Shown piece by piece: positions 7,696 to 29,903 of a DNA stretch of 32,000 nucleotides; position 1 is the first letter of the stretch, and every line of letters begins with the position of its first letter. This DNA is from Candidatus Methylomirabilis oxygeniifera (GTDB taxonomy: Bacteria; Methylomirabilota; Methylomirabilia; Methylomirabilales; Methylomirabilaceae). The stretch covers positions 630,001 through 662,000 of the forward strand of contig FP565575.1 of assembly GCA_000091165.1 (NCBI GenBank), in the 5' to 3' direction. Position numbers and translations under genes: made by a program. Under the pieces are notes generated by a model, which was given only the letters and a program-made list of their open reading frames with translations, was not told the origin of the DNA and searched no databases.

Positions 7696-7713
7696 GATAA
7701 TGGAGTCGTTGCC

Positions 7714-14339: not shown

Positions 14340-14383
14340 GATGCAAAGAAGCGATCGGCGTTCGGCGATTAAGGGATAGGAGT

Positions 14384-14457
14384 ATAGGCTGAAGACCGAA
14401 GGCTGAAGGATCCTCACAATCTTCCACCTTCAGCCTATTTACCTTCAGCCTTCAGTC
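14384..14457. repeat. REP-like palindromic spacer (AGGCTGAAGG / CCTTCAGCCT arms) between paralogs 2 and 3
   Basis: G-arms ATAGGCTGAAG (14384-14394) and AAGGCTGAAGGA (14399-14410) face C-arms CCTTCAGCCTAT (14427-14438) and ACCTTCAGCCTTCAG (14441-14455). Confidence 0.6.
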
Positions 14458-14505
14458 TGGTACTGACCCCTGACAGCTTTGTTTTCGAAGGAAGAGGGAG
14501 GTTGT

Positions 14506-15417
14506 ATGGGTTTCCTGAGCTCATTATTTGGGAGTGGTGGGAAGCGTGGTAAAAGGCTGATCGAGGCGTCCAAATCCGGAGAAACCGGAAAAGTTAAGAG
14601 CCTGTTGGCCGAAGGCGCCGATGTGAATGCGATAGATGGGGACGGCTGGACAGCCCTGATGCATGCATCGTGGGTCGGACATCTTACGGTTGTCGAAGCG
14701 CTGCTCGATCGTGGCGCTGATGTGAACGTGCAGGATAAGAATGGGGGGACGGCACTGATCCGGGCGGCCTGGAAAGAACACGCCCGTGTGGTGGAGAGGC
14801 TTCTCGCGAAAGGCGCTGAGGTTGACGTAAAGGATAAAGATAGCTTTAGCGCGCTGATGCGTGCGGCATGGAATGGCCGTTTCGGAGTGATAGAGATACT
14901 CCTCAATAACGGAGCAGTTGTGGATGCGAGGGACAAATTTGGTTGTACGGCCCTCATACGCGCGTCGTTGAATGGCCATACCAGGATTGCGGAACTCCTG
15001 CTCGATCGAGGCGCGGACCTGAACGCGCTGGATCAACATGGCGGGACGGCGCTGATACATGCCGCCGCGCAGGGCCATACCGGGGTTGCGGAGCTCCTGC
15101 TCGATCGAGGCGCGGACCTGAACGTACGGGATCAATACAGCAGGACGGCGCTGATACGGGCCGCCGCGCATGGCCATACCGGGGTTGCAGAACTCCTGAT
15201 CAATCGAGGCGCGGACCTGAACGTACGGGATCAACATGGCGGGACGGCGCTGATACGGGCCGCCGCGCATGGCCATACCGGGGTTGCGGAACTCCTGCTC
15301 GATCGAGGCGCGGACCTGAACATGTGGGATGCCGATGGCGGGACGGCTTTGGAGCGCGCATCTTTGAATGGACACCTTAAGATGTTGGAACTGTTGAAGA
15401 AGTATGGGGCACAGTAA
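14506..15417 (+). CDS. Ankyrin-repeat protein, paralog 3 (303 aa)
   Basis: Start moved to ATG 14506 (GAGGGAGG SD 5 nt upstream), so the N-terminus is MGFLSSLFGSGGKRGKRLIEASKSG as in the other paralogs. ANK periodicity runs throughout. Confidence 0.9.
   Translation: MGFLSSLFGSGGKRGKRLIEASKSGETGKVKSLLAEGADVNAIDGDGWTALMHASWVGHLTVVEALLDRGADVNVQDKNGGTALIRAAWKEHARVVERLLAKGAEVDVKDKDSFSALMRAAWNGRFGVIEILLNNGAVVDARDKFGCTALIRASLNGHTRIAELLLDRGADLNALDQHGGTALIHAAAQGHTGVAELLLDRGADLNVRDQYSRTALIRAAAHGHTGVAELLINRGADLNVRDQHGGTALIRAAAHGHTGVAELLLDRGADLNMWDADGGTALERASLNGHLKMLELLKKYGAQ
14974..15370 (+). repeat. Four consecutive highly similar 99-bp ANK modules inside paralog 3
   Basis: GGCCATACC recurs at 14974, 15073, 15172 and 15271. 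GHTGVAELLLDRGADLNVRDQ-type units share long identical runs. Confidence 0.85.
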
Positions 15418-15437
15418 GATTAAAAAAAGTGATCAGC

Positions 15438-15500
15438 TATAGGCGGAAGAGGCTGAAGGCAGATAGACTGAAGGCGTTGAGTATTCTTCAGTCTTCAGCG
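15438..15500. repeat. REP-like palindromic spacer between paralogs 3 and 4
   Basis: G-arms AGGCGGAAG, AGGCTGAAGG and AGACTGAAGG face C-arms CTTCAGTCTTCAGCG. A GCTGAGCGCTGATCGCT motif follows at 15526-15542. Confidence 0.6.
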
Positions 15501-15564
15501 TAACCCTTTGCTTTTGTGGCTGACGGCTGAGCGCTGATCGCTATGCTCTCAGAAAGGAGGGTAT

Positions 15565-16476
15565 ATGGGTTTATTTGGGTCACTATTTGAGGGTGGTGGA
15601 AAGCATGGCGCAAAGCTCATCGCGGCGTCTCAATCCGGAGAGACCGATAAAGTCAAGAGCCTGTTGGCTGACGGCGCCGATGTCAATGCGAAGGATCGCG
15701 AGGGCTGGACGGCTCTGATGCATGCGTCCTGGCATGGACATGCCGAGGCGGCAGCGGCACTGCTCGATCGTGGCGCTGACGTGGGGACGACGGATAACAA
15801 TGGTGGGACCGCTCTGATACGCGCGTCCTGGCATGGGCATGTCGAGATTGCGGAGCGACTGATCGCGAAAGGCGCCGATGTCAACGTGAGCGACAAAGAC
15901 AGCTTTACGTCCCTCATGTATGCGTCCGAGAATGGGCACGTGAAGGTCGTAGAGCTGCTGCTCACGCACGGCGCCGCTATCGACGCCAGGGCCGGTAATG
16001 GCCGGACGGTTCTGATGATGGCGTCTGCGGAAGGATATACTGAGGTGGTAGACCTGCTGATCAGTAAGGGCGCCGACGTCAATGTCTGGGACAAGACCGG
16101 CTGGACGGTCCTGATGTATGCATCCGGGAAGGGGCATACCGGGATTGCAGAGCGGCTGCTCGCGAAAGGCGCCGATCCGAATGCGAAGGATAGTAATAGT
16201 GTCACAGCCCTGATGCGTGCGGCTGTGAATGGGCGTTTCGGGGTCGCAGAACTGCTGCTCAAACACGGCGCCGATCTGAATGCGAAGGATAGTAATAGCG
16301 TCACAGCCCTGATGTATGCGGCCGGGAAAGGACATGCGAAGGTTGTAGAGTTACTGCTCACGCAAGGCGCGGACGTGAACGTCAAGGCGAATGATGGCGG
16401 GACGGCCCTGGAGTATGCGCATTGGCATGGGTATGATGACGTTACGGAGCTGCTTGAGAAACACGGGGCGCACTGA
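15565..16476 (+). CDS. Ankyrin-repeat protein, paralog 4 (303 aa)
   Basis: N-terminus MGLFGSLFEGGGKHGAKLIAASQSGETDKVKSLLADGADV, followed by ANK modules. SD AAAGGAGGG lies upstream. Confidence 0.9.
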   Translation: MGLFGSLFEGGGKHGAKLIAASQSGETDKVKSLLADGADVNAKDREGWTALMHASWHGHAEAAAALLDRGADVGTTDNNGGTALIRASWHGHVEIAERLIAKGADVNVSDKDSFTSLMYASENGHVKVVELLLTHGAAIDARAGNGRTVLMMASAEGYTEVVDLLISKGADVNVWDKTGWTVLMYASGKGHTGIAERLLAKGADPNAKDSNSVTALMRAAVNGRFGVAELLLKHGADLNAKDSNSVTALMYAAGKGHAKVVELLLTQGADVNVKANDGGTALEYAHWHGYDDVTELLEKHGAH

Positions 16477-16483
16477 GTGGGAG

Positions 16484-16575
16484 TAAGGCTGAAGGGATTT
16501 AGGCTGAAGGAGGATAGGCTTCAAGGCGCTATTCCTAAAAGCCTAACAGCCTACAGCCTTAACACCTGAGTAGTT
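16484..16575. repeat. REP-like palindromic spacer between paralogs 4 and 5
   Basis: Tandem G-arms TAAGGCTGAAGGGATT, TAGGCTGAAGGAGGAT and AGGCTTCAAGG occupy 16484-16526. A degenerate C-arm GCCTAACAGCCTACAGCCTTAACACCTGAGTAG follows. Confidence 0.6.
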
Positions 16576-16590
16576 GCGAAAGGAGGCACT

Positions 16591-17502
16591 ATGGGTTTCC
16601 TTAGCTCATTATTTGGGGATAGTGGGAAGCCTGTCGATAGGCTCATCGAGGCGTCGAAGTCCGGAGACATCGAAAAAGTCAAGCGCCTGCTGGCCGAAGG
16701 CGCCGATGTGAACGAGAGAGATGCGGATGGCTGGACGGCCCTGACACATGCGTCCTGGCATGGCCATGCCCCGGTTGTCGAGCTGCTGCTGAATAAAGGC
16801 GCCGATGTGCATGTGAGAGACAATAAAGGCTTTTTGGTTTTGATTCATGCGTCTTGGAGGGGGCATGTGGAGGTTGTCGAGCTGCTGCTGAATAAAGGCG
16901 CCGATGTGCATGTGAGGAATGAAGACGGCGGGATAGCCCTGATGCGTGCGTCCGAGAAAGGGCATACCCCGGTGGTCGAGTTACTGTTGAATAAAGGCGC
17001 CGATGTCAACATGAGGGATCAGAATGGTTGGACTTCCCTGATGCGAGCGTCCTGGTATGGGCATGCCCCGGTGGTCGAGCTACTGTTGAATAAAGGCGCC
17101 GATGTCAACGTGAGAGATCAGAATAGCGGAACGCCCCTGATGCATGCGTCCAAACATGGATATGCCCCAGTAGTCGAGCTGCTCCTGACTCAAAGCGCTG
17201 ATGTGAATGCCAAGGCGGGTAGTGGCGTGACCGCCCTGATGTATGCATCTGAGTATGGATATGCCGGGATTGTCGAGCTGCTCCTGGCTCAAAGCGCTGA
17301 TGTGAATGCCAAGGCGGATAATGGCGCGACCGCCCTGATGCTGGCGTCTGGGAACGGGCATACCGGGTGTGTGGAGCGGCTCCTGACTCAAGGCGCTGAT
17401 GTGAAGGCGAAGGATTATAATCGTCGGACGGCCCTGATGTATGCCACGTCTAACGGGCATACTCAGGTAGCTGAGCTGTTGCAGAAGCACGATACACACT
17501 GA
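16591..17502 (+). CDS. Ankyrin-repeat protein, paralog 5 (303 aa)
   Basis: N-terminus MGFLSSLFGDSGKPVDRLIEASKSGDIEKVKRLLAEGADV, followed by ANK modules. SD AAAGGAGG lies upstream. Confidence 0.9.
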   Translation: MGFLSSLFGDSGKPVDRLIEASKSGDIEKVKRLLAEGADVNERDADGWTALTHASWHGHAPVVELLLNKGADVHVRDNKGFLVLIHASWRGHVEVVELLLNKGADVHVRNEDGGIALMRASEKGHTPVVELLLNKGADVNMRDQNGWTSLMRASWYGHAPVVELLLNKGADVNVRDQNSGTPLMHASKHGYAPVVELLLTQSADVNAKAGSGVTALMYASEYGYAGIVELLLAQSADVNAKADNGATALMLASGNGHTGCVERLLTQGADVKAKDYNRRTALMYATSNGHTQVAELLQKHDTH

Positions 17503-17508
17503 GTCGGA

Positions 17509-17592
17509 GTATAGGCTGAGGACTGTTAGCCTTCTAGGGGTCGCACCTTGAAGTCTATCCTCCTTCAGCCTAAATCCCTTCAGCCTATTTAC
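17509..17592. repeat. REP-like palindromic spacer between paralogs 5 and 6
   Basis: 17546-17588 is the reverse complement of 16484-16526 (40/43 identical by my alignment). CCTTCAGCCTATTTACCTT is also present at 14427-14445. Confidence 0.65.
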
Positions 17593-17608
17593 CTTGAAAG
17601 GAGGCACT

Positions 17609-18427
17609 ATGGGTCTTTTCGGACAATTATTTGGCGGGGGAGGTGACAAGCCTGCCGGCAACCTTATCGATGCAGCTAAATATGGAGAGGTAGAAAAAGT
17701 TAAGAGCCTGTTAGCTGAAGGCGCCGACGTGAACGCGAAGGATCTGGATGGGTGGACGGCCCTGATGCGCGCGGCCTGGCGTGGAGATATCGGGATTGCA
17801 GAGCTGCTGCTCAACAAGAGCGCCGACGTGAACGCGGGTGATAAACAGAACTGGACAGCCCTGATGCATGCGTCCGAGAATGGGCATCCGGAGATTGCAA
17901 AGCTGTTGCTCAGTAAGAACGCCGATGTGAATGTCAGGGCGACCAATGGCGCAACGACCCTGATCATCGCGTCTGCCAACGGGCATACCGAGATCGTCAA
18001 ACTTCTGCTCGAGAAGGGGCCCGAAGTGAACGTGCAGGCGAATGATGGCGGGACGGCTCTGATGCGTTCGGCTGCGAACGGGCATACCGAGATCGTCACC
18101 CTGCTGCTCGATAAAGGTGCGGATGTCAACATCAGGGATCGAAAAGGCGAAACGCCGCTGATGCGTACGTCTGCGGAAGGGCAGTTGGGGCTCGTCACGA
18201 TGCTGCTGGAGAAGGGGGCTGATGTGAACGCGCAGGCGATTAAAGGCGAGACCGCCCTGATGTATGCGGCGTGGTATGGGCGTATGGGGGTTGTCAAGCT
18301 GCTACTCAGTCACGGCGCTGATGTGTATCTTAAGGATAGCAACAAAGGTGAGAACGCCAGAGGATATGCGTACGGGAACGGACATGAGGACATCGCCCTG
18401 CTGCTGGAGAAGCACGCGGCGCAGTGA
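17609..18427 (+). CDS. Ankyrin-repeat protein, paralog 6 (272 aa, about 8 modules)
   Basis: Start moved to ATG 17609 (AAAGGAGG SD), giving MGLFGQLFGGGGDKPAGNLIDAAKYGEVEKVKSLLAEGADV. ANK modules run throughout. Confidence 0.9.
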   Translation: MGLFGQLFGGGGDKPAGNLIDAAKYGEVEKVKSLLAEGADVNAKDLDGWTALMRAAWRGDIGIAELLLNKSADVNAGDKQNWTALMHASENGHPEIAKLLLSKNADVNVRATNGATTLIIASANGHTEIVKLLLEKGPEVNVQANDGGTALMRSAANGHTEIVTLLLDKGADVNIRDRKGETPLMRTSAEGQLGLVTMLLEKGADVNAQAIKGETALMYAAWYGRMGVVKLLLSHGADVYLKDSNKGENARGYAYGNGHEDIALLLEKHAAQ

Positions 18428-18857
18428 GACGACGCTGCAGAATGTCACATATAGCCCCCTCTATCGAGAGCCTGTTCCGGACTCAACCTGGGGGGTGAGC
18501 GTGGGTTTTCCCTTGAACTCAGCGTAATCTCTCTGATAAGTGTGTCAGCCATTTCTGCCACCATCTCCCGCTTGATGCCCTCTTCGGTTCTGGCGTCGTG
18601 AAATACCAGAGAGGGCCGAGCCGGGTGCGACGCACGCGGTCATGTCGCGCATCGCGCTCAAGGGGTTCCCGGAAAGACCGGGCAGGAGGAAACCGTGGTT
18701 GCACCTGGGCTGGATACGTTCCGGGTGGCCCGCTTCAAAGTCGCGCCTGAAGCGAGGGGCCGGCTCCGCCTTCTCGATCACACGGGTTCCGTCCTCTGCC
18801 TCTCGCACATCGGCCCGCGCGGTGACGGCGCGCGCCGGACGCGCCGGAGTGCGGGAC

Positions 18858-20855
18858 ATGTCTGAGGATCTTAGCCCGAAGTATCAGATCACCACCCCGG
18901 ACGATGCCTACTGGCGCCAACAGATCAAGTGCCAGGACGCCTGCCCCGTACACACGGATGCCCGCGGCTACGTGAACGCGATCGCCGACGGCGATCCCGA
19001 GCGCGCGTACATCATTGCCCGCGAGCCGAATCCTTTCGCCTCGATTTGCGGCCGGGTGTGCGCCGCGCCCTGCGAAGCCGCCTGCCGCCGGGGCGATCTT
19101 GACGCGCCTATCGCCATCCGCGCCCTTAAGCGCTTCGTGACCGAGCGCTACGGCGTGGAGGCCCCGCTGCGGGCCGACCGGGCCCGCCCGTCGATCGAGG
19201 CGACGGGTCTCCACCTGGTGGAGGCAAGCCCGATCGTCCGGGAGATCCGAAACGTCGAGGACGCCACCGCCCTGCGGCGGGTCGGCCTGGCCGAGCACGC
19301 GGGGACGGGCAAGCGCGTGGCCGTGGTCGGCTCCGGCGTGGCGGGCCTGACCTGCGCGCACGACCTGGCCCTGCTCGGGTATCGGGTGACGGTCTTCGAG
19401 AAGCAGACGGTCCCTGGCGGGATGCTCATGCTCGGCGTCCCCGAGTACCGCCTCCCCCGGGACCTGGTGCGGGCAGAGATCCAGGCCATCCTCGACCTGG
19501 GCGTGGAGCTGAAGACGAACGCAGCCATCGGGCGGGACTTCGCGCTGGCCGACCTGCGGGCCCAGGGCTTTGAGGCAACGTTCCTGGCCATCGGGTGTCA
19601 CAAGGCGCGTGGGCTCCCGATCGAGGGAACCGAACTGGACGGCGTCTTCCGGGCGGTGGAGTTCCTCCTCAATATCAACCTCGGCTTCAAGGTCGACCTG
19701 GGCCGGCGCGTGATCGTGGTGGGCGGCGGGGACGTGGCGATGGACGCGGCCCGCACTGCCGCCCGCGAGATGGCCGGGGTGGATCCCGTCGCGGCCATGC
19801 GCGAGGCCATGGACGTCGCCCGCGAGGCAGTCCGCGCGGGCGCCCGCGAGGTGCGGGTCGTCTGTCTCGAGTCCTGGGACGAGATGCCGGCCCAGCGCTT
19901 CGAGATCGAGGAGGCCCTGGCGGAGGGGCTCGCTATCTTCCCGCGCCTCGGACCGAAGCGCATTGTGGGTCAGGAGGGCAGGGCGGTCGGCCTGGAGACG
20001 ATCCGCGTGAGCCGCGTCTTCGACGAGCAGCGACGCTTCAGCCCCCGGTTCGTGGAAGGGACGGAGCAGGTGATGGCCGCCGACTCGATCATCCTGGCTA
20101 TCGGGCAGGCGCCGGACCTGGCGTTCCTCGGTCCAGAGGATGGCGTTGCGATCACCCCCCGCCAGACGATCCAGGTAGACTCGGCCACGCTGGCTACCAC
20201 CGCGCCCGGGGTGTACGCCGGCGGCGATGTGGCGTTCGGCCCGCGCATTTTCATCGAGGGTGTCGCCAACGGGCACCGCGCAGCCCGCTCCATCCACGAA
20301 TATCTGAGCGACCGGCGCTTTGCCCTCTCGACCAGGGCGGAGTGGGTCCGCCTCGATCACGACCGCCAGGTCCTGCAGGGAGAGGCCGGAACCGAGCCGG
20401 CCTTGCCGCGCGTGTATCCCGGCTATCGGGCGACGCCGCGCCGCGAGCCGCCTGGACTGCCCATCGACCGGCGCATCGGAATCGCCGAAGTGGAACTGAA
20501 GTACCCGGACACCCAGGCCCAGGCCCAGGCCCAGCGCTGCGTCCGGTGCGGGATCCACACGATCTTCGACGGCACAACGTGTATCCTGTGCGGCGGGTGC
20601 GTGGATGTCTGCCCCGAGTACTGCCTGCGTATGGTTCCCATCGACCAACTCGCCGGCGACGATGCCGTGACGTCCCTCGTTGAATCGCTCACCGGTTCCC
20701 CGCAATCCGCAACCCCCGTCGCGGCCTCAGCCGCCACCGCGATGCTCATGGATGCGACCCGCTGTATCCGCTGCGCCCTGTGCGCGATGCGGTGTCCCAC
20801 GGGCGCCATCAGCATGGAGGCGTTTCGCTATGTCGAAACCTGGGTCCTCGCCTGA
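18858..20855 (+). CDS. GltD-like (glutamate synthase small-subunit family) NAD(P)H:acceptor oxidoreductase with C-terminal 2x[4Fe-4S] ferredoxin domain
   Basis: Start taken at ATG 18858 (MSEDLSPKYQ...); the track's upstream extension looks like noncoding read-through. An N-terminal Cys cluster (CQDACPVHTD...ICGRVCAAPCEAACRRG) is followed by a dinucleotide fold VAVVGSGVAGLTCAHDLALLGYRVTVFEKQTVPGGMLMLGVPEYRLPR and a second fold VIVVGGGDVAMDAART. The C-terminus carries CVRCG...CILCGGCVDVCP and CIRCALCAMRCP. Confidence 0.85.
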   Translation: MSEDLSPKYQITTPDDAYWRQQIKCQDACPVHTDARGYVNAIADGDPERAYIIAREPNPFASICGRVCAAPCEAACRRGDLDAPIAIRALKRFVTERYGVEAPLRADRARPSIEATGLHLVEASPIVREIRNVEDATALRRVGLAEHAGTGKRVAVVGSGVAGLTCAHDLALLGYRVTVFEKQTVPGGMLMLGVPEYRLPRDLVRAEIQAILDLGVELKTNAAIGRDFALADLRAQGFEATFLAIGCHKARGLPIEGTELDGVFRAVEFLLNINLGFKVDLGRRVIVVGGGDVAMDAARTAAREMAGVDPVAAMREAMDVAREAVRAGAREVRVVCLESWDEMPAQRFEIEEALAEGLAIFPRLGPKRIVGQEGRAVGLETIRVSRVFDEQRRFSPRFVEGTEQVMAADSIILAIGQAPDLAFLGPEDGVAITPRQTIQVDSATLATTAPGVYAGGDVAFGPRIFIEGVANGHRAARSIHEYLSDRRFALSTRAEWVRLDHDRQVLQGEAGTEPALPRVYPGYRATPRREPPGLPIDRRIGIAEVELKYPDTQAQAQAQRCVRCGIHTIFDGTTCILCGGCVDVCPEYCLRMVPIDQLAGDDAVTSLVESLTGSPQSATPVAASAATAMLMDATRCIRCALCAMRCPTGAISMEAFRYVETWVLA

Positions 20856-21348
20856 GTCGATCGACAACAGTCCGGACAAGGGACGGATCTCGCGCCGCGT
20901 CCTGCTGGGGACAGGCTGGTGCGGGTTCCTGCTCTCCATCGTGGGCCCCGCCCTGGCCAACATCCGCTTCCTCTTCCCCAACGTCGTGTACGAGGGCCCC
21001 ACACTGCTCAAGGTAGGACGCCCGGAGGACTACGCGTCGGGAACGATCACGTTCCTGGATGAGCAACGGCTCTTCATCATGCGGGACCCCGAGGGGCTCC
21101 GGGCGCTGTCGGCCATCTGCACGCACCTGCGGTGCACCACCGGACCCTTTGTGCCGCCGACCGCCGAGTGGAAGGAGGCCCACTCGCGCTGCCCGTGCCA
21201 TGGCAGCATCTTTGCTAAGGACGGCCGGGTCCTCCAGGGACCGGCCCCACGGCCCCTCGATTTCTATCGGGTCAGCCTCGCCCCGGATGGCCGCCTCGTG
21301 GTCGACACGGCTGCCGTCGTAGACAAGGGGGATGTCCTGAAGGTGTAG
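20830..21348 (+). CDS. Rieske [2Fe-2S] protein with twin-arginine-like signal anchor
   Basis: Start at ATG 20830 (MSKPGSS...) overlaps the upstream stop by 26 nt. SRRVLLGTG is followed by a hydrophobic segment. Rieske boxes CTHLRC and CPCHGS are present. Confidence 0.9.
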
Positions 21349-21437
21349 GCAAGAGGCCGAAGGCAAGTGCGAGGCCATCATCGCTTCGGCTGATCGCCGT
21401 CGGGAGACGGCTCCTGCCCGGACCACTGGAAGCCCAG

Positions 21438-22934
21438 GTGTGCTTGGGAGCCATGATGACAGACGGACGGACGAGCGGGATCATCAATCGCGTGACTGCG
21501 AGCCGGCTGTGGAAGTCGGTCTTTCGGCACGGCTATCCGGCCACGGATCTGGACCGGATGTCCGCCATGTTTACCAACTTCTTCCTCCACCTCCTCCCGG
21601 CCAAGGTCCATCCGAACAGCCTGCGCCTTACCTACACCTGGGCCCTGGGGATGGTCACCTTCTACCTCATGGTCATCCAGTTCGTGACCGGCTTCCTCCT
21701 GATGTTCTTTTACATCCCGGTCACGGACCTGGCCTACCACAACATGAAGGATCTCCAGTTCGCCGTCTCCTTCGGCCTCCTCCTCCGCAACATGCACCGC
21801 TGGGCGGCCCACGGAATGGTGGCGCTGGTGTTCCTCCACATGGGCCGCGTCTTCTACACAGCCTCGTATCGCCCGCCCCGCGAGTTCAACTGGACCATGG
21901 GCGTTCTCCTCTGGCTGGTGACGCTGTTCCTCAGTTTCACGGGGTACCTCCTCCCGTGGGATCAGCTTGCCTTCTGGGCCATCACGGTGGGTACGAGCAT
22001 TGCCGGCTACCCGCCCTGGATCGGGGAGACCATCCGGACGCTGATGCTCGGCGGCCATCAGGTCGGGCAGGGCGCCCTGCTGCGCTTCTACGTGCTCCAC
22101 GTTGCGATCCTTCCCGCGATGCTCTGCCTCCTGGTGGCGATCCACTTCTGGCGGGTGCGGAAAGACGGCGGCCTCTCTCGGCCGGAGGGCCCGTCGCCCA
22201 AGCGCACCGCCATCCCGGTCGCCGGGGGGCGGTTCGTTCCCGGGCCGCAGAAGACCTATACCCTGATGGAGGTTGTGCGCGGAACCTCGCCGATGGTGGG
22301 GGCGCAGAGGCCGGAGGACGAGGTTCCCGCCTGGCCCCACCTCCTCTTCCGGTTGGTCGTCCTCTTCCAGGTCGTGCTGGGTGTTGTCGTCCTCCTGGCC
22401 ATCGTGTTTGACGCCCCCCTGGAAGAGCTGGCCAACCCCACGCACCCGCCGAACCCGGCCAAGGCGCCCTGGTACTTCCTGGGCCTGCAGGAGTTGGTGA
22501 GCTACTCGGCCCTGGTGGGGGGCGTGGTGATCCCCGGCCTCCTGGTCCTGGGTCTGATGGGTATCCCGTACATCGATCGCACGCGGGAGGGGGAGGGGAT
22601 ATGGTTCACGTCGGCCCTGGGGAAGCGGATCGCGGCATGGTCATTCGTGGGGACGATCCCGTACACCATGGGCCTCCTATTCCTGAACGCTCGCTTCGGC
22701 GTGCGGCAATTCGCCCCCGAGGCCCCGCAGGGGGTCGTGGACCTGCTCAACCCGGCCACGCTGCTCCTGGCTGCCATCGTTGCCTTCTCGGTCATCGTCG
22801 GCTGGCGCACCGGCTCGCGCCGGATGGCGGCCATCGCCCTCTTCTCGGCCTTTGTCTCGGCCTACGTGCTCCTGATGATCATCGGGACGTACTTTCGCGG
22901 TCCCAACTGGGACTGGGCGCTGCCATGGCGTTGA
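21438..22934 (+). CDS. Cytochrome b (long, fused b6 plus subunit-IV-like form)
   Basis: Up to 498 aa. Heme-ligand His pairs occur in [20 protein letters not shown] and [37 protein letters not shown] and the PEWY-equivalent region [16 protein letters not shown] are present. The start is ambiguous between GTG 21438 and ATG 21453/21456. Confidence 0.9.
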
Positions 22935-22986
22935 AAGCCGGGATTGGGGGTTGGGCGTTGGGGGTTAGCGGGAAGAGAGGCAGGGG

Positions 22987-23778
22987 ATGAGTCGGCGATG
23001 GGTGTGGGCATTCGCTGTGTTGGGCGTCTTCAACGGGCTCCTCTTCCTGGTTGCCCTCTGGCGCGACTATGACCGGGAGTGGAAGCGCTACCAGACGGCC
23101 TTTTTCGCCCTCGAGGGCCGCAAGGCGCGGACGGCCCGGGAGGAAGAGGCCGTGAAGGCCCGCCGGCACGAGTTCATCCAGGTCGCCGTAGCGGGGACGG
23201 CCAGGGTGGACCGGTGCATGATGTGCCACCTCGGCATCGAGGATCAGCGGTTTGCCGACGCGCCGCAGCCGTTCCGGAGCCACCCGGAGATCCCGAGACA
23301 TCCCTTCGAACGCTTCGGGTGTACCGTCTGCCACGGGGGGCAGGACATGGCCACGACGAAGGCCGATGCCCACGGGCGTGTCCCGTTCTGGGAGGAGCCG
23401 CTGCTGGAGGGGGAGTACCGCCAGGCTGCCTGCGGCGGCTGCCACCTCGGCGGCGACGTACCGGGCGCGCCGCTGCTGGCCCAGGGGCGGCAACTCTACC
23501 TCCAGCGGGGCTGCGTCGCGTGTCACCGGATCCGCGGCATGGGCGGGATGGTTGGGCCGGACCTGACGTTCGTGGGGAGCCGCAAGCACGATCCTGAATG
23601 GTACATACGACACTTCAAGGACCCGCAGGCCACGGTGCCCGGCTCGACCATGCCCCCCTTCAAACACCTGCCGGAGGCGGAGCTGAAGGCGTTGACGGTC
23701 TATATGCTGAGTCTGCGCGAGATGCCGTCGGCCCTCCTCCCGGCACCCCGAACGGCGGCAGCCTCAGGAACGCAATAA
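22987..23778 (+). CDS. Membrane-anchored tetraheme c-type cytochrome
   Basis: 263 aa with an N-terminal hydrophobic anchor WVWAFAVLGVFNGLLFLVALW. It has four CxxCH motifs: CMMCH, CTVCH, CGGCH, CVACH. Confidence 0.85.
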   Translation: MSRRWVWAFAVLGVFNGLLFLVALWRDYDREWKRYQTAFFALEGRKARTAREEEAVKARRHEFIQVAVAGTARVDRCMMCHLGIEDQRFADAPQPFRSHPEIPRHPFERFGCTVCHGGQDMATTKADAHGRVPFWEEPLLEGEYRQAACGGCHLGGDVPGAPLLAQGRQLYLQRGCVACHRIRGMGGMVGPDLTFVGSRKHDPEWYIRHFKDPQATVPGSTMPPFKHLPEAELKALTVYMLSLREMPSALLPAPRTAAASGTQ

Positions 23779-23830
23779 CGCAGCGGCAAACGTCCGGCTC
23801 TGTGCGGCCGGCCCTCCGGAAGAACCCTGA

Positions 23831-24145
23831 AAGAAGGAGGGCGAACCACCCGTCGCCAGGATACGGGCGCCTCACCGTCCATCGTGCTTTCTGACTCCAG
23901 GAAGAGATGTGTGGCGATCCGTCATTGTGGTTCCCGTTTCCACAGCCGACTCCCAGGCGCGACGTGGACCGACCGCCGTACCGCTCCCGGCAGGAACAGG
24001 CGGCTTGAAGAAAGATAGCGTCGCGCTTTGCCACCAAGTCACGACACTTGATCGAAGCAAGTTGACCTCGCTCGCCGGGGTACTTCCACCTGAACTCCTC
24101 GCCAAGGTTGGTGACGGTTTAAGAATCGCGCAGGATCTGTCGTAG
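23831..24145 (+). pseudogene. MazF/PemK-family toxin remnant (5'-degraded, frameshifted)
   Basis: The intact C-terminal ORF at 23909-24145 reads ...VIVVPVST...PTAVPLPAGTGGLKKDSVALCHQVTTLDRSKLTSLAGVLPPELLAKVGDGLRIAQDLS, which fits the MazF/PemK core. Upstream N-terminal-like pieces (PSIVLSDSRKR in another frame, RPSCFLTPGRD in frame) are interrupted by a TGA at 23828 and a frame change near 23905. No antitoxin gene lies upstream. Confidence 0.55.
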
Positions 24146-24167: not shown

Positions 24168-24290
24168 TCATACAACGATGTGGGCGAGCCGCCCGAGGCA
24201 GCGCACCCGCCGACCTTCCTGTTCGAGCCGCCGCCAGAGTCGTCCCCCGACATAGCCGGTGGCACCCGTGACGAGAACGAGACCGTTCAT
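24168..24290 (-). pseudogene. Truncated N-terminal fragment of an NAD(P)-binding SDR/epimerase-type gene
   Basis: Own translation gives MNGLVLVTGATGYVGGRLWRRLEQEGRRVRCLGRLAHIVV*. It has the Rossmann TGxxGxxG motif and stops after 40 codons, with no room for the rest of the protein. Confidence 0.5.
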
Positions 24291-24472: not shown

Positions 24473-24748
24473 TTACGCCGGAGAATGATTCTTGAGCCAC
24501 TCGCGTAAAGCGGCATCAACGCGAGTTTGCCAACCCTCTCCACTTTCGCGGAAACGTTCCACCACTTCCCGCGATAACCGAATGGTGATGCGTTCTTTTG
24601 TTGGAGTTTTCTGAGGGCCACGCACACCCAGTTTCTTTCTGAGCGATGCCGGTAATACCTCAGCGGCCGGCTTGAATTTCGTCATATCTTCGGCGGTGAG
24701 TTCACGAACTTCGCCGTCTGCGCTAATCAGTGGCTTGCGGCTTGCCAT
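24473..24748 (-). CDS. brnA: BrnA-type antitoxin (ribbon-helix-helix)
   Basis: 91 aa. The C-terminus ERITIRLSREVVERFRESGEGWQTRVDAALREWL matches the BrnA pattern I recall (IxIRLdxdvlexFkaxGkGYQTrIN). It overlaps brnT by 26 nt. Confidence 0.8.
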   Translation of the reverse strand: MASRKPLISADGEVRELTAEDMTKFKPAAEVLPASLRKKLGVRGPQKTPTKERITIRLSREVVERFRESGEGWQTRVDAALREWLKNHSPA

Positions 24749-25001
24749 ATCGAATTACCTCTCTTGCGTTGGCCTTACGAAAGCTGATTACCCGGATGCC
24801 GGTTTCAGTTTCGGTGAAACATAGCACATGCAGCCTGCGATCCAGATAACAAAGCGCAATGTAACGGGTTTCGCCGTATGTCTTTCGAGTGTCTGGGAAC
24901 ACCAGCGCAGTATTGAAATCGACCTCCGCGGCTCGCTCGAACGAGAGTTGGCGCTCTTTGATGTTTCTCTCGTTCTTGATCGGATCGAAGTCGACTTTCA
25001 T
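24723..25001 (-). CDS. brnT: BrnT-type toxin (DUF497)
   Basis: 92 aa. MKVDFDPIKNERNIKERQLSFERAAEV...RYIALCYLDRRLHVLCFTETETGIRVISFRKANAREVIRY fits the DUF497/BrnT pattern. The toxin-first gene order is typical for BrnTA. Confidence 0.8.
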   Translation of the reverse strand: MKVDFDPIKNERNIKERQLSFERAAEVDFNTALVFPDTRKTYGETRYIALCYLDRRLHVLCFTETETGIRVISFRKANAREVIRYGKPQATD

Positions 25002-25008
25002 GTACTAC

Positions 25009-25037
25009 ATCGTATGCACAAATAAGTGGTACGTCAA
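25009..25037 (-). promoter_or_regulatory. Candidate promoter for brnTA, probably producing a leaderless or near-leaderless mRNA
   Basis: On the minus strand: TTGACG (25037-25032), a 17-nt spacer, TACGAT (25014-25009), then 7 nt to the brnT ATG at 25001. The -35 overlaps the stop codon of the upstream channel gene. GTATGCACA occurs twice as a direct repeat (25012-25020 and 25045-25053), which could be an operator. Confidence 0.4.
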
Positions 25038-26104
25038 GTGTTTTGTATGCACAGACACCTGCTGAGCTGGTGCATGAGCCCGATGAAGACGGCCGCCCAT
25101 GCGCCGAAGGCCACGTAGACGAAGTAGTGGGGGATCATCATGAGGATCGGCAATTCCGTTACCTCTGCCAATCGGAATGTGCAGACCGTGTACATGCCCA
25201 AAGGGAAGACAGCCCCCCAGTACAACGGGTCGTATGCCAGCGGGAACCTCCGCATGACGTGTCTCCACACCCCCACCGTGACGAGCATCGGGATCCACCA
25301 CGTCGCAGTCGCCCAAAAGAGCAGGGTCATCCCGTAGAGAAACGGCAGCATGCGTTGCAACAGGTCGAAATCCGGGGCTTTACCGATCAGCACCGTACCG
25401 GCCAGCGTCGAGATAGCCATCGCTCCCATGTTGATCCAGTAGGGGGGTGTGAGGTCGGCCGGTGAGAACGGAAAGAAGAGGTAACGGTAAAAGACCAGAG
25501 AGATGATCCAGATATAGAGCATGCCGCCGAACAGCCACATGACCAGCGCGAAGAACAGGGTCACCTCACGGTATAGTTCCGATTGCTGGGCGATCAGCCC
25601 GCCGAGAACGGCAATCGCCTGCGTCGCGACAACACTGAGGAGCCATCCGCCATTGATACCCTCCCTGAGAGAGGGTTTCGCCCGCTTTGTCACAAAGCCG
25701 GTAAACATCCCGTAGGTCAAACCCGCATACAGCACCACCGCCAGAAACCATAGCGCCACCGCTGCCTGCTGACTTTTGCCTGCCAGGAACAGTTGAGTGC
25801 CGAGTACACCACACGCGGCGACGGTAGTAAAAAAGCCCGGTCCGCGGCTGTGATTCAAGAGATCTGCGGTGAAACGCCGCGGGAATCGGATAATCCGCAG
25901 ACCCGTCAACAGCCAGAGCACCGCGAAGGCGATCACGTTGAGCCAGAGCAGCGCTTCGGCGATCACCTCCATCCCCTGGAGGCGGGCTGCAATCGAGATG
26001 ATGCCGGTCGCCATGACGAGTCCGAAGTAGGCGGGGTGCAGACCCCTGATACCCTTCCGGACCGCTGCCGGCCCCCCCAACGATGCTCCTGGCTTTCGCG
26101 TCAC
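25034..26104 (-). CDS. TehA/SLAC1 (TDT) family anion channel/transporter
   Basis: 356 aa with about 10 TM segments. N-terminal HPAYFGLVMATGIISIA and the general layout are typical of the tellurite-resistance/dicarboxylate transporter family. It has a GTG start with GAGGA 4 nt upstream. Confidence 0.75.
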   Translation of the reverse strand: MTRKPGASLGGPAAVRKGIRGLHPAYFGLVMATGIISIAARLQGMEVIAEALLWLNVIAFAVLWLLTGLRIIRFPRRFTADLLNHSRGPGFFTTVAACGVLGTQLFLAGKSQQAAVALWFLAVVLYAGLTYGMFTGFVTKRAKPSLREGINGGWLLSVVATQAIAVLGGLIAQQSELYREVTLFFALVMWLFGGMLYIWIISLVFYRYLFFPFSPADLTPPYWINMGAMAISTLAGTVLIGKAPDFDLLQRMLPFLYGMTLLFWATATWWIPMLVTVGVWRHVMRRFPLAYDPLYWGAVFPLGMYTVCTFRLAEVTELPILMMIPHYFVYVAFGAWAAVFIGLMHQLSRCLCIQNT

Positions 26105-26174
26105 CTATTCCTCGGGCGTTCGTCATAGCCCCATAGCCACCCATGTATCATGGTTTCATGGGAATCCTGTCTTC

Positions 26175-26858
26175 CTATACCTTCCCCATGTGCCGGTTCC
26201 ATATGACGACCTGCAGGGGGCGCCAGAGATACCGAAGTGGAAATGAGATGATGTGTACCAGCCTGGTGAACGGAAACAGGCCGATGATGCCGAACCCTAA
26301 CAGCATATGGAGTTTCGCGATGAAGGGGAGGTCGACGACGTACTCGATCTTGGGCTGGAATGTGAAGAGCGAGCCGATCCACGGGACCGACGTGTCCATG
26401 TACCAGTCCGCGCCCCAGCGGTAGTTCAGCGCGACCCAGAATCCGAGAACGACTTGCGTGATGAGCAGAGGCAATAACACCCAATCCATCACGCTGGAGG
26501 TCGCGCGAACCCGCGGGTTCGTCAAACGCCGCCAGGTGAGCGTGAGAATTCCTATGATCGCAAATACGGCGAGGGCCAGGCCGATCACTTCCAGTGTCGT
26601 GAGGATATGGATATTGGACAGCAATCGCCTCCAGGGGCCGGGGAACAGAAAGGCAATCAGGTGGGCCAGTAAGATGATAATGATCCCGAAGTGCCAGGGG
26701 ACGGAACCCCAGAACAGCCTCCGGTTCTCCAGGAACTGGGACGAGATGCTGGAAAACGAAAACCGGTCGCGATTGAACCGCCAGACAGTTCCCACCACCG
26801 CGTTGAAGAGCGCCAGGTAAGGAAACGCCGCAAACAGCACGAAGTTCAGCGAGTTCAT
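26175..26858 (-). CDS. narI: Respiratory nitrate reductase gamma subunit (diheme cytochrome b)
   Basis: 227 aa with 5 TM segments. MNSLNFVLFAAFPYLALF... and WHFGIIIILLAHL are typical NarI features. It is the last gene of the nar cluster. Confidence 0.9.
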   Translation of the reverse strand: MNSLNFVLFAAFPYLALFNAVVGTVWRFNRDRFSFSSISSQFLENRRLFWGSVPWHFGIIIILLAHLIAFLFPGPWRRLLSNIHILTTLEVIGLALAVFAIIGILTLTWRRLTNPRVRATSSVMDWVLLPLLITQVVLGFWVALNYRWGADWYMDTSVPWIGSLFTFQPKIEYVVDLPFIAKLHMLLGFGIIGLFPFTRLVHIISFPLRYLWRPLQVVIWNRHMGKV

Positions 26859-26867
26859 GGGAACCCC

Positions 26868-27767
26868 CTACGCCTTTCCCCCCAATACCTGTTCCAATGC
26901 GCGCAGGACATGCGCATACGGGTGCGACAGCCGCTCCTCCTCGCCCTTTCGCACCTCTTCTTTCCGCATATCCTTTTCCTTCTCGTGCTCGGGAACGCCC
27001 TTGAGCTGCGTCCCGAGATCGCCCGTCAACGGTCCCGTCGCGAGCGGGCACGGACCACAGGACGGCCGATCAAATTCATGACCTTCCATCGATTGAGTAC
27101 CGAAGGGAGGGTGGTCCGTGTGTGGCACGTCTTTCAACCCTTCAGTGATGACGCCCTGTCCGAAGGCTTCCGGATGCCACGACGCGGCAATCTCATCAGG
27201 TTGATAGAATTGACGCTGCTCGGCGCGAATGGCATCCTGGAGGGATCGTACTGTCGTGTGCTGCGCCGCGAGATCCTCTCCGCGGTCGGTCGTGGCGCTT
27301 TTGCCGAGCATGTTTTTGATCGACGGAACGATCCCCTCCAGAATCAGCCCTTCCCGGAACTCCTCATGGTCGCAATGCGGCAGGAACCGAAGAGCCACCG
27401 CCAGATGATCGGGCAGTTCCGGTCTGCAATCGTACTCATGTGCGCAGTAATGTTCGTTCAGCTTCACCAGAAAATGACTGCGCTTATACGTCTCGCCGAA
27501 CAGGTGGTAGCCGATGTAGATCTTGAACAGGGGGTCGAGGTCGAAGGCGTCGGTATAGACCTGCCTCCAGTATGCCAGGTCGTGGGTGTTCACGAACGTG
27601 TCGAAGAAAGCCAGTTCGTTATCGGCCGCAGGGATCATGGATCGGATCTGTTGACGGGCGTCCCGCACGTACACAGGCAGATTCTCGTCGGGGTACTGCA
27701 GCAGTCGTCCGAGTTGATCCAACGCCTGGCACACGACGGTTGACCCGATGGAGATCATGGCTACCAT
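26868..27767 (-). CDS. narJ: Nitrate reductase assembly chaperone NarJ (TorD family) with an unusual C-terminal extension
   Basis: The N-terminal roughly 170 aa (LGRLLQYPDE...YTDAFDLDPLFKIYIGYHLFGETYKRSHFLVKL...ELPDHLAVALRFL) fit NarJ. A further roughly 120 aa are charged or low-complexity and contain CGPCP. Its start overlaps the narH stop (ATGGTAG); ATG 27758 is an alternative start. Confidence 0.75.
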   Translation of the reverse strand: MVAMISIGSTVVCQALDQLGRLLQYPDENLPVYVRDARQQIRSMIPAADNELAFFDTFVNTHDLAYWRQVYTDAFDLDPLFKIYIGYHLFGETYKRSHFLVKLNEHYCAHEYDCRPELPDHLAVALRFLPHCDHEEFREGLILEGIVPSIKNMLGKSATTDRGEDLAAQHTTVRSLQDAIRAEQRQFYQPDEIAASWHPEAFGQGVITEGLKDVPHTDHPPFGTQSMEGHEFDRPSCGPCPLATGPLTGDLGTQLKGVPEHEKEKDMRKEEVRKGEEERLSHPYAHVLRALEQVLGGKA

Positions 27768-29290: not shown

Positions 29291-29314
29291 CAGGTTACCC
29301 TCCGGAATCGCTCT

Positions 29315-29896: not shown

Positions 29897-29903
29897 CAGC
29901 GCG

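What the first reader, a model, noticed from the sequence alone, without database searches (positions are those of the whole stretch)
18858..23778. Rieske/cytochrome b module with its start overlapped by a GltD-like NAD(P)H flavoprotein and followed by a tetraheme cytochrome c
There are four co-oriented genes. The first is a GltD-like FAD/NAD(P)H oxidoreductase with an N-terminal Cys cluster and a C-terminal 2x[4Fe-4S] domain. Its stop overlaps the Rieske start by 26 nt. A long cytochrome b and a membrane-anchored tetraheme c follow.

Canonical bc1/b6f operons have no NAD(P)-linked subunit. As I recall, comparable clusters were noted in anammox genomes (Kuenenia Rieske/cyt b complexes with an NAD(P) oxidoreductase subunit) and were proposed, without biochemical proof, to bifurcate quinol electrons toward NAD(P)+ and a high-potential acceptor.

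This locus would be a compact candidate for such a quinol:NAD(P)+/cytochrome c bifurcating complex, or for reverse electron transport.
Basis: partly seen in the sequence, partly recalled or inferred. Interest (0 to 1): 0.7.

Follow-up and report, generated by a model that had tools for sequence, protein, structure and literature searches.

The report
Flavoprotein-bearing Rieske/cytochrome b respiratory complex
These four genes of the methane-oxidising bacterium Methylomirabilis oxyfera encode a quinol-oxidising membrane complex with an NAD(H)-binding flavoprotein attached; this kind is already described in anammox bacteria, is widespread in other phyla, and its function has not been proven biochemically.

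Summary
There are four co-oriented genes:
- an FAD/FeS flavoprotein (18858-20855);
- a Rieske protein (20830-21348), whose start overlaps the flavoprotein stop by 26 nt;
- a fused cytochrome b (21453-22934);
- a membrane-anchored tetrahaem cytochrome c (22987-23778).

The window is Candidatus Methylomirabilis oxyfera, and the proteins are CBE67831-CBE67834. The cytochrome b is DAMO_0768, which published phylogenomics already used as a member of a cytochrome b subfamily noted for sitting next to NAD(P)-binding FeS oxidoreductases.

The linkage is not chance. In 59 of 59 genome loci with enough downstream DNA, from more than 12 phyla, relatives of the flavoprotein are followed by Rieske and cytochrome b genes.

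The module is homologous to the anammox NAD(P)-linked complexes. It shares their extra N-terminal histidine, proposed to bind an additional haem. That histidine is invariant in 76 of 76 family members.

It differs from the Kuenenia type in three ways: no haem cN cysteine, a fused cytochrome b, and Cys-Leu-Glu where NADPH-dependent relatives have Tyr-Arg-Arg.

The direction of electron flow cannot be settled from sequence. The locus is already known and of moderate interest.

The parts
18858..20855 (+). FAD/FeS flavoprotein, 665 aa (CBE67831), NfnB/GltD-like. No signal peptide or membrane helix, so it is cytoplasmic.
   Evidence: Pfam domains. PDB relatives are NfnA/NfnB/GltD/DPD. Exact match to CBE67831. 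GGAG at 18846-18849 lies 8 nt before the ATG.
18924..19148 (+). N-terminal FeS domain (Fer4_20) with invariant Cys25, 29, 64, 68, 72, 76 and Glu73
   Evidence: 82-83 of 84 sequences
19329..19346 (+). FAD-binding GSGVAG motif (residues 158-163)
19722..19871 (+). Nicotinamide-nucleotide Rossmann motif GGGDVAMD (residues 289-296), a partly duplicated helix, and Cys336-Leu337-Glu338 at the position where NADPH-dependent relatives have Tyr-Arg-Arg
   Evidence: Alignment to NfnB-type chains. [C/S]-L-E is found in 83 of 84 family members, and Y-R-R only in the Kuste4570-like protein. Internal repeat D1.
20538..20795 (+). C-terminal FeS domain: two CxxCxxCxxxCP motifs (Cys575-585, Cys636-646) plus three further invariant cysteines (561, 564, 589)
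20816..20855 (+). Gene junction: GGAGG at 20816-20820, Rieske ATG at 20830, flavoprotein stop at 20853-20855, giving a 26-nt overlap (likely translational coupling)
   Evidence: The same 26-nt overlap occurs in the 79%-identical relative L001.
20830..21348 (+). Rieske [2Fe-2S] protein, 172 aa (CBE67832). Tat motif SRRVLL at 20890-20907, one membrane helix, cluster boxes CTHLRC (21118-21135) and CPCHGSIF (21190-21213, Ser-Phe type).
21453..22934 (+). Fused cytochrome b, 493 aa (CBE67833 = DAMO_0768): a b6-like four-helix part plus a subunit-IV-like part with five hydrophobic segments
21588..21590 (+). His46 in the motif NFFLHLLP, N-terminal to the Pfam cytochrome b domain. It is the equivalent of His43 of Kuste4571, the proposed ligand of an extra haem b at the dimer interface.
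   Evidence: Invariant in 76 of 76 family members. Aligned to His43 of the anammox cytochrome b6. Proposal from PMC12954380.
21642..21653 (+). ALGM at the position of the CxGG motif of b6-type cytochromes: there is no cysteine for covalent haem cN
   Evidence: only 2 of 76 family members have CLGG
21795..22145 (+). Span holding the four canonical haem b ligands His115, His129, His216, His231 (codons start at 21795, 21837, 22098, 22143)
   Evidence: All four invariant in 76 of 76. Aligned to the b6 ligands. Coordinates.
22464..22475 (+). Qo-site motif APWY, in place of PEWY
   Evidence: APWY is present in every family member checked but one (AAWY in L021).
22987..23778 (+). Membrane-anchored tetrahaem cytochrome c, 263 aa (CBE67834). 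Anchor at 22996-23067. CxxCH motifs at 23215, 23320, 23431, 23512. The last haem lies in a class I / FixO-like domain.
18650..23900 (.). G+C-rich island that holds exactly the four genes (GC 0.68, GC3 0.86-0.90, against 0.58 and 0.63-0.81 for neighbouring genes)

Best explanation
The four genes encode one membrane complex. It is a Rieske/cytochrome b quinol oxidase of the 'APWY' / subfamily G type, and an NfnB-like flavoprotein docks on its cytoplasmic face.

The inferred wiring is as follows.
- At the outer quinol site (Qo), menaquinol gives one electron to a high-potential-type Rieske cluster. That electron passes to the tetrahaem cytochrome c and on to periplasmic acceptors, in M. oxyfera probably nitrite reductase or an oxidase.
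- The second electron crosses the membrane through the two b haems. It is not returned to quinone. It leaves through an extra haem held by His46 of both cytochrome b copies.
- From there it passes through the flavoprotein's FeS clusters to FAD, which reduces NAD+. The sequence favours NADH over NADPH.

The downhill electron therefore pays for the uphill one. This is quinone-based bifurcation producing NADH, as proposed for the anammox complexes.

The chain should be reversible. Its direction in the cell would depend on the redox state of the three pools and on the membrane potential.

What is shown: the gene content, the motifs, the homology to the anammox complexes, and the strict conservation of the gene linkage. 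What is inferred: physical association in this organism, the extra haem, nucleotide preference and direction.
For: Linkage:
- Rieske and cytochrome b genes sit next to the flavoprotein gene in 59 of 59 informative loci from more than 12 phyla and in metagenome relatives at 79%, 60% and 53% identity.
- In this window the flavoprotein and Rieske genes overlap by 26 nt, with no terminator between genes.

Homology to the anammox complexes. Native-gel co-migration of all their subunits is reported (citing de Almeida 2016).

Family-wide invariants that a canonical Q cycle does not need:
- His46, equivalent to Kuste4571 His43, in 76 of 76.
- 17-18 conserved cysteines in the flavoprotein.
- The APWY motif.
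- A Ser-Phe or Ser-Tyr Rieske box. Kuenenia's Ser-Phe protein measured +335 mV.

Loss of the haem cN cysteine in 74 of 76 members.

Terminal reductases are encoded next to the module:
- NosZ in 11 loci.
- An HAO-like protein in Kuenenia.
This fits outward flow of the high-potential electron.
Against: - No biochemistry exists for any member outside anammox bacteria, and none shows NAD(P)+ reduction even there.
- Energetics are tight once the membrane potential is counted. This is my estimate: about 370 mV gained against about 400 mV needed at standard potentials.
- M. oxyfera makes ample NAD(P)H from formaldehyde and formate oxidation, so it has no obvious need for this route (established pathway knowledge, not tested here).
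- NfnB, GltD and DPD relatives normally take electrons from NAD(P)H.
- The APWY clade was proposed to run in reverse.
- Some relatives sit directly after arsenite-oxidase-like or other periplasmic donor enzymes.
- The complexome study of Methylomirabilis could not be read.
Confidence: 0.5

Rival explanations
1. Same complex, opposite direction: the flavoprotein is an NADH entry module. There are two forms of this idea.
(a) NADH electrons reach the inner-side b haem and reduce quinone there, so the complex is an NADH dehydrogenase fused to a Q-cycle quinol:cytochrome c reductase.
(b) NADH electrons travel back through the b haems and meet electrons from reduced cytochrome c at the Qo site to make menaquinol (confurcation, a reversed Q cycle with NADH in place of inner-site quinol). 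In M. oxyfera this could feed methanol-dehydrogenase electrons into the quinol pool used by methane monooxygenase.
For: - The closest solved relatives (NfnB, GltD, DPD) oxidise NAD(P)H.
- The family is most common in heterotrophs that have no need to make NADH from quinol: Acidobacteriota, Bacteroidota, Verrucomicrobia, Geothrix.
- Kao and Hunte proposed reverse operation for APWY cytochromes b.
- The module sits directly downstream of an arsenite-oxidase-like pair plus cytochrome c in L003, and of a Mo-pterin / NrfD / cytochrome c set in L001.
- De Almeida 2016 is cited as proposing electron flow into menaquinone.
Against: - Form (a) gives no reason for a high-potential Rieske protein in menaquinone organisms or for the invariant APWY motif. 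Hauser et al. consider it wasteful.
- Form (b) needs reduced cytochrome c as a co-substrate, which fits poorly with NosZ or HAO-like terminal reductases encoded next to the module.
- Neither form has been tested.
Confidence: 0.33
2. The Rieske protein, cytochrome b and cytochrome c form an ordinary complex III. The flavoprotein is an independent soluble NAD(P)H:acceptor oxidoreductase that merely shares the operon.
For: - The flavoprotein has no membrane segment.
- Source databases annotate relatives as glutamate synthase beta or formate dehydrogenase beta subunits.
Against: - The 59 of 59 linkage across phyla, with changing gene order but constant partnership.
- The gene overlap.
- A cytochrome b histidine outside the canonical domain, invariant in every flavoprotein-linked cytochrome b checked (no unlinked cytochromes b were sampled).
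- Reported co-migration in Kuenenia.
- No partner for an Nfn-type or GltB-type enzyme in the window.
Confidence: 0.07
3. The module is a recently acquired, poorly expressed passenger island in Methylomirabilis with little role in its respiration. Other Rieske/cytochrome b complexes of the organism do the work.
For: - Sharp G+C and GC3 step at both ends, with gene remnants at the right edge.
- The literature places other cytochrome b genes in M. oxyfera.
Against: - All four reading frames are intact, with every cofactor ligand kept.
- The module is retained at about 90% or more identity in several Methylomirabilis species, with the same neighbours in at least one.
Confidence: 0.1

Closest known systems
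Kuenenia stuttgartiensis Rieske/cytochrome b complexes Kuste4569-4574 and Kustd1480-1485 (anammox R/b complexes with an NAD(P) oxidoreductase subunit)
   Same: - A homologous flavoprotein with an N-terminal FeS domain, FAD and nucleotide sites, and a C-terminal FeS domain (36% identity to a Kuste4570-like protein).
- A homologous Rieske protein (top PDB hits), of the Ser-Phe type like Kustd1480.
- A b6-like cytochrome b with the extra His43-equivalent histidine.
- A subunit-IV-like part with extra helices.
- A multihaem cytochrome c in place of c1 or f.
   Different: - Cytochrome b and subunit IV are fused.
- There is no haem cN cysteine (ALGM against CMGG).
- The cytochrome c has four haems rather than six or eight, and no HAO-like partner.
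- Gene order starts with the flavoprotein.
- The flavoprotein has Cys-Leu-Glu where the Kuste4570-like protein has Tyr-Arg-Arg.
- The host is a nitrite-dependent methanotroph without an anammoxosome.
Cytochrome b subfamily G (Dibrova et al. 2013/2017) and the 'APWY clade' (Kao and Hunte 2014)
   Same: - DAMO_0768 itself was a seed sequence for that analysis.
- APWY motif, with a Rieske protein of mid to high potential type.
- Published note that these cytochromes b sit next to large NAD(P)-binding FeS proteins.
   Different: Nothing essential: this locus is a member. Added here are the strict 59 of 59 linkage, the invariance of His46, and the observation that the APWY motif and the flavoprotein linkage coincide.
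Canonical cytochrome b6f and bc1 complexes
   Same: Rieske cluster boxes, four haem b ligands, a Qo-site loop, and a c-type cytochrome on the outer side. The best solved cytochrome b matches are b6 chains.
   Different: - A cytoplasmic flavoprotein subunit.
- An extra conserved histidine.
- APWY instead of PEWY.
- No haem cN.
- A five-helix subunit-IV part.
- A tetrahaem cytochrome.
NfnB / NfnABC (Bfu) large subunits, GltD, dihydropyrimidine dehydrogenase
   Same: The Fer4_20 FeS domain plus FAD and nicotinamide-nucleotide Rossmann domains (E 1e-82 to 1e-33).
   Different: - No NfnA or GltB partner gene.
- An added C-terminal dicluster domain with three extra cysteines.
- An inserted, partly duplicated helix.
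- Tyr-Arg-Arg replaced by Cys-Leu-Glu.

Membership tests
Rieske/cytochrome b (bc-type) complexes | Rieske protein with CxH...CxxH cluster boxes and a membrane or Tat anchor | tested here: met
   CTHLRC / [14 protein letters not shown] and one membrane helix
Rieske/cytochrome b (bc-type) complexes | Cytochrome b with two His pairs for haems bP and bN | tested here: met
   His115, 129, 216, 231, invariant in 76 of 76 and aligned to the b6 ligands
Rieske/cytochrome b (bc-type) complexes | Qo-site PEWY-type motif | tested here: met
   Present as the APWY variant, a recognised natural pattern
Rieske/cytochrome b (bc-type) complexes | Quinol:cytochrome c oxidoreductase activity | not testable with these tools
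   Needs enzyme assays
Anammox-type NAD(P)-oxidoreductase-bearing R/b complexes (Kartal 2013) | Flavoprotein gene in the same cluster, homologous to Kuste4570 / Kustd1483 | tested here: met
   36% identity, E 6e-117, full length, to the flavoprotein of a Kuste4569-4574-like locus. 44% identity to the Scalindua locus L038.
Anammox-type NAD(P)-oxidoreductase-bearing R/b complexes (Kartal 2013) | Extra N-terminal histidine of cytochrome b (Kuste4571 His43 / Kustd1481 His62) | tested here: met
   His46 aligns with His43 and is invariant in the family
Anammox-type NAD(P)-oxidoreductase-bearing R/b complexes (Kartal 2013) | Split b6 plus subunit IV, with haem cN (CxGG) | tested here: not met
   Fused 493-aa protein with ALGM at that site. 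This is the usual state in the wider family (74 of 76 lack the Cys).
Anammox-type NAD(P)-oxidoreductase-bearing R/b complexes (Kartal 2013) | Subunit-IV part with five rather than three helices | tested here: inconclusive
   A hydropathy scan gives five hydrophobic segments after the b6-like part. There is no structure.
Anammox-type NAD(P)-oxidoreductase-bearing R/b complexes (Kartal 2013) | High-potential Rieske cluster (above +300 mV) in a menaquinone organism | not testable with these tools
   Only the Ser-Phe sequence signature is seen. Kustd1480, with the same signature, measured +335 mV.
Anammox-type NAD(P)-oxidoreductase-bearing R/b complexes (Kartal 2013) | Flavoprotein co-migrates with the membrane subunits | not testable with these tools
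   Reported for Kuenenia. The Methylomirabilis complexome paper is not held.
Cytochrome b APWY clade / subfamily G | APWY motif with a Ser-Phe or Ser-Tyr Rieske partner, and a neighbouring NAD(P)-binding FeS protein | tested here: met
   DAMO_0768 is named in the source paper.
Nfn transhydrogenase (NfnAB) | NfnA partner with [2Fe-2S] and a second FAD | tested here: not met
   No such gene in the cluster or window
Nfn transhydrogenase (NfnAB) | Tyr-Arg-Arg after the second strand of the NADPH domain | tested here: not met
   Cys-Leu-Glu at that position
Glutamate synthase small subunit (GltD) | Adjacent GltB large subunit, with no extra C-terminal ferredoxin domain | tested here: not met
   No gltB in the window. 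A C-terminal dicluster domain is present.

The most novel reading that the evidence does not exclude
The flavoprotein-bearing Rieske/cytochrome b complex may be a general, so far uncharacterised respiratory device rather than an anammox oddity. It is present in hundreds of species across more than a dozen phyla, including cultured heterotrophs such as Geothrix campi. On this reading it splits menaquinol electrons between a very oxidising acceptor (nitrite, N2O via an adjacent NosZ, or O2) and NAD+, through a fifth haem held by an invariant histidine. The recycled electron can then pass through complex I again, which would raise the energy yield per electron respired.
Probability: 0.3. Interest if true: 0.7.

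Novelty: already known. Interest (0 to 1): 0.33.

Why it matters
If the complex links the quinone pool directly to NAD(H), published electron budgets change for nitrite-dependent methane oxidation, anammox and clade II N2O respiration. Each assumes an ordinary complex III.

The practical gain from this check is a route to a test. The same module, with the same invariant ligands, occurs in cultivable heterotrophs such as Geothrix campi and other Acidobacteriota. The hypothesis could be tested there instead of in slow enrichment cultures.

The locus itself is not a discovery. It lies in a genome published in 2010, and its cytochrome b has already been classified.

Tried and rejected
- Exact look-up of the cytochrome b from the mechanical GTG start (21438) found nothing. 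The ATG at 21453 gave the exact database protein.
- The Methylomirabilis and Kuenenia complexome papers are not in the held library. A search for the DAMO locus tags found only Dibrova 2017, and its supplements are not held.
- Literature searches for the module outside anammox bacteria, through NfnB or glutamate synthase wording, gave nothing specific. The Parcubacterium paper describes only an ordinary PetAB complex.
- A search with the Kuste4569 crystal sequence did not return the exact Kuenenia protein, so I used an 84%-identical orthologue and its locus L087 instead. A second locus, L088, is broken by frameshifts and was not used.
- Promoter, terminator and RNA-fold scans between the genes gave only chance-level results. 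There are no Rfam matches and no tRNA genes. No convincing flanking direct repeats mark the G+C island.
- My first regular-expression tallies of the CxGG and Tyr-Arg-Arg positions failed on divergent sequences, so I replaced them with alignment-based counts.
- The literature search on clade II nos clusters gave no description of the flavoprotein.
- I did not run structure prediction. Single-chain models would not show docking or cofactors.

Full report
**What is there**

The region 18858-23778 holds four co-oriented genes.

The first encodes a 665-aa cytoplasmic flavoprotein.
- Pfam finds an N-terminal Fer4_20 iron-sulfur domain, FAD and nicotinamide-nucleotide Rossmann domains, and a C-terminal two-cluster ferredoxin domain.
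- The cysteines lie at 25, 29, 64, 68, 72, 76 and at 561-646.

The second encodes a 172-aa Rieske protein with a twin-arginine motif, one membrane helix, and the boxes CTHLRC and CPCHGSIF. Its ATG at 20830 overlaps the flavoprotein stop (20853-20855) by 26 nt and is preceded by GGAGG.

The third encodes a 493-aa cytochrome b. Its N-terminal half resembles cytochrome b6, and a longer hydrophobic C-terminal half follows.

The fourth encodes a 263-aa cytochrome c with an N-terminal anchor and four CxxCH motifs.

Scans for promoters, terminators and stable RNA structure between the genes gave only what shuffled sequence gives.

**Where it comes from**

Seven of the proteins looked up, including all four of the module, match database entries of Candidatus Methylomirabilis oxyfera (oxygeniifera) exactly. 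They lie on a 2.75-Mb contig.
- CBE67831 is the flavoprotein.
- CBE67832 is the Rieske protein.
- CBE67833 is the cytochrome b.
- CBE67834 is annotated 'hypothetical tetrahaem c type cytochrome, part of bc1 complex'.

CBE67833 is DAMO_0768. Dibrova and colleagues used it as a seed for their cytochrome b subfamilies. [quoted passage not shown] So the locus is in the literature, although only as one entry in a phylogenomic survey.

**Is the linkage real**

The flavoprotein has thousands of relatives.
- Metagenome contigs carrying relatives at 79%, 60% and 53% identity all show the same order: flavoprotein, Rieske protein, cytochrome b, cytochrome c.
- A scan of one genome per species returned 457 relatives among the first 600 candidates, and 80 loci were kept.
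- These come from Acidobacteriota, Bacteroidota, Ignavibacteria, Verrucomicrobia, Planctomycetia, Scalindua, Zixibacteria, Chloroflexi, Binatota, Kryptoniota, Calditrichaceae, Acidimicrobiia and others. They include the isolate Geothrix campi.
- All 59 loci with at least 4.5 kb of downstream DNA have Rieske and cytochrome b genes beside the flavoprotein gene. 56 also have a homologous multihaem cytochrome c. In three loci the order is changed but the partnership is kept.

Such constancy over this phylogenetic distance is what one expects of subunits of one enzyme.

**Relation to the anammox complexes**

- The two best solved-structure matches of the Rieske protein are 9rk4 and 9rk3. These are Kuste4569 and Kustd1480, the Rieske subunits of the two Kuenenia complexes that carry an NAD(P) oxidoreductase.
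- I recovered a locus orthologous to Kuste4569-4574 (L087).
- Its cytochrome b6 is 50% identical to the N-terminal half of the window's cytochrome b.
- Its subunit IV matches the C-terminal half, including the APWY loop.
- Its flavoprotein aligns over the full length at 36% identity.
- A Scalindua locus (L038) has the same gene order as the window.

**Family-wide features**

I aligned 76 cytochromes b that sit next to the flavoprotein.
- The four canonical haem ligands are invariant, and so is a fifth histidine: His46 in the motif NFFLHLLP.
- His46 lies N-terminal to the Pfam cytochrome b domain, outside the stretch that aligns with b6.
- It aligns with residue His43 of the anammox cytochrome b6.
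- Hauser and colleagues, from AlphaFold3 models, proposed His43 of Kuste4571 as the ligand of a new haem b at the dimer interface, bridging the membrane haems and the flavoprotein's FeS clusters.
- Their paper does not report how widely the residue is conserved. Its invariance here is independent support for their proposal.

Other features are just as regular.
- The Qo motif is APWY in every member checked but one. This identifies the group with the 'APWY clade' of Kao and Hunte.
- The Rieske box is of the Ser-Phe or Ser-Tyr type, which those authors class as mid to high potential. Kuenenia's Ser-Phe protein measured +335 mV.
- Only 2 of 76 keep the cysteine that binds haem cN. The window has ALGM.
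- In the flavoprotein, 17-18 cysteines are conserved in 82-84 of 84 sequences. Three of them (561, 564, 589) are not needed for the two ferredoxin-type clusters.

**A difference from Kuenenia**

NfnB-type proteins and the Kuste4570-like flavoprotein have Tyr-Arg-Arg after the second strand of the nucleotide domain. 83 of 84 members of the window's group have Cys/Ser-Leu-Glu at that position.

By the general rule for Rossmann folds, arginines there bind the 2'-phosphate of NADPH and an acidic residue favours NADH. This points to NADH. It is an inference and has not been tested.

**How it probably works**

The parts form a plausible wire from a cytoplasmic nucleotide site to the outer quinol site:
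- FAD;
- N-terminal FeS clusters;
- C-terminal FeS clusters;
- a haem at His46;
- haem bN;
- haem bP.

The Rieske protein and tetrahaem cytochrome form the second branch.

The published hypothesis is that quinol oxidation sends one electron downhill to a strong oxidant, and this pays for the other electron to reduce NAD(P)+. Three things fit that view:
- the high-potential-type Rieske protein in what are mostly menaquinone organisms;
- the loss of haem cN;
- terminal reductases encoded beside the module: an HAO-like protein in Kuenenia, and NosZ in 11 of the loci examined here.

A possible physiological reason that would also hold for heterotrophs is that the recycled electron re-enters through complex I. 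That is my inference.

Several points count against the hypothesis.
- The energetics are tight once the membrane potential is counted.
- M. oxyfera is not short of NAD(P)H.
- Relatives of the flavoprotein usually oxidise NAD(P)H.
- The APWY clade was proposed to work in reverse.
- In some relatives the module follows periplasmic donor enzymes.

I therefore give about 0.5 to bifurcation toward NAD+, about 0.33 to NADH-consuming modes, and little to an independent flavoprotein.

**Setting in the genome**

The four genes form a G+C island: GC 0.68 and GC3 0.86-0.90, against 0.58 and 0.63-0.81 for the neighbouring genes.

In a 79%-identical relative from a G+C-rich NC10-like contig, the module matches its surroundings. 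This suggests transfer into the Methylomirabilis lineage.

The island's right edge abuts an N-terminally truncated mazF/pemK-like remnant and a 40-codon fragment of an epimerase-like gene.

The convergent narGHJI cluster downstream is separated from the module by a BrnT/BrnA pair and a SLAC1/TehA-like channel gene. Nothing links it to the module.

**Verdict**

- New here, in a modest way, are the strictness of the gene linkage, the invariance of the extra histidine, the coincidence of the APWY clade with the flavoprotein, the NADH-like signature, the link to NosZ in some lineages, and the presence of the module in cultivable bacteria.

Noticed in passing
window 18650-23900: The four genes form a sharp G+C island (GC 0.68, GC3 0.86-0.90, against 0.58 and 0.63-0.81 in neighbours). 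A 79%-identical relative on a G+C-rich NC10-like contig (L001) matches its own flanks. This suggests lateral acquisition by the Methylomirabilis lineage.
   Followed up: partly
window 23921-24145 (+) and 24168-24290 (-): There are gene remnants at the right edge of the island. One is an N-terminally truncated MazF/PemK-like toxin reading frame. The other is a 40-codon fragment beginning MNGLVLVTGATGYVGG, the N-terminus of an NAD-dependent epimerase-like protein. A BrnT/BrnA pair follows at 24473-25001 (-).
   Followed up: partly
window 12530-18427 (+): Six tandem paralogous ankyrin-repeat genes of 237-312 aa share an N-terminus of the form MG[FLW]F..LF followed by a loosely conserved K/R-L-I-E/A-A-S/A-K/Q stretch. 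The strand shows strong positive GC skew. Their function is unknown.
   Followed up: no
window 2433-9072 (+): A complete Pup-proteasome gene set: a proteasomal AAA ATPase, two Pup-ligase family genes, and proteasome beta and alpha subunits. This system is best known from Actinobacteria and is present here in an NC10 bacterium.
   Followed up: no
window 25034-31931 (-): A SLAC1/TehA-like anion channel gene is followed by narI, narJ, narH and the 3' part of narG. The database name for NarH says it 'may be more similar to nitrite oxidoreductase'. The cluster converges on the module, but no evidence links them.
   Followed up: no
L027, L035, L037, L041, L044, L046, L047, L052, L062, L068, L079 (about 400 nt to 1.2 kb after the cytochrome c homologue match): In 11 loci from Acidobacteriota, Ignavibacteriales, Kryptoniota, Bacteroidota and Calditrichaceae, a NosZ gene (nos_propeller plus cupredoxin) follows the flavoprotein / Rieske / cytochrome b / pentahaem module. 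The module therefore appears to be part of clade-II-like N2O reductase clusters. I found no paper that mentions the flavoprotein in that context.
   Followed up: partly
L003/L007 4340-7990; L001 1-7986: In a 4.27-Mb MAG, the module follows within about 10 nt an arsenite-oxidase-like pair (small Rieske protein plus Rieske_3 / molybdopterin subunit), a monohaem cytochrome c and two MauG/CCP peroxidases. In the NC10-like relative it follows a molybdopterin / 4Fe-4S / NrfD set with several cytochromes c.
   Followed up: no
about 30 loci, e.g. L005 5979-7986, L065 4775-6346: In the octahaem subtype (mostly Acidobacteriota, also Geothrix), two further co-oriented genes precede the flavoprotein gene. 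One encodes a protein of about 450 aa with no Pfam match (30 loci). The other encodes a CarboxypepD_reg-like protein of about 200 aa (25 loci). A small cytochrome c gene follows the module (25 loci).
   Followed up: partly
window 19730-19853: There is an internal partial duplication in the flavoprotein's nucleotide-binding domain (GDVAMDAARTAAREM / REAMDVAREAVRAGAREV). It makes HMMER split the alignment to NfnB-type proteins into two pieces. The inserted stretch varies in length among relatives.
   Followed up: no
window 20538-20546 and 20622-20624 (Cys561, Cys564, Cys589): Three cysteines beyond the eight needed for two ferredoxin-type clusters are conserved in 83-84 of 84 flavoproteins. They may bind a further cluster, or a cluster shared with another subunit.
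   Followed up: no
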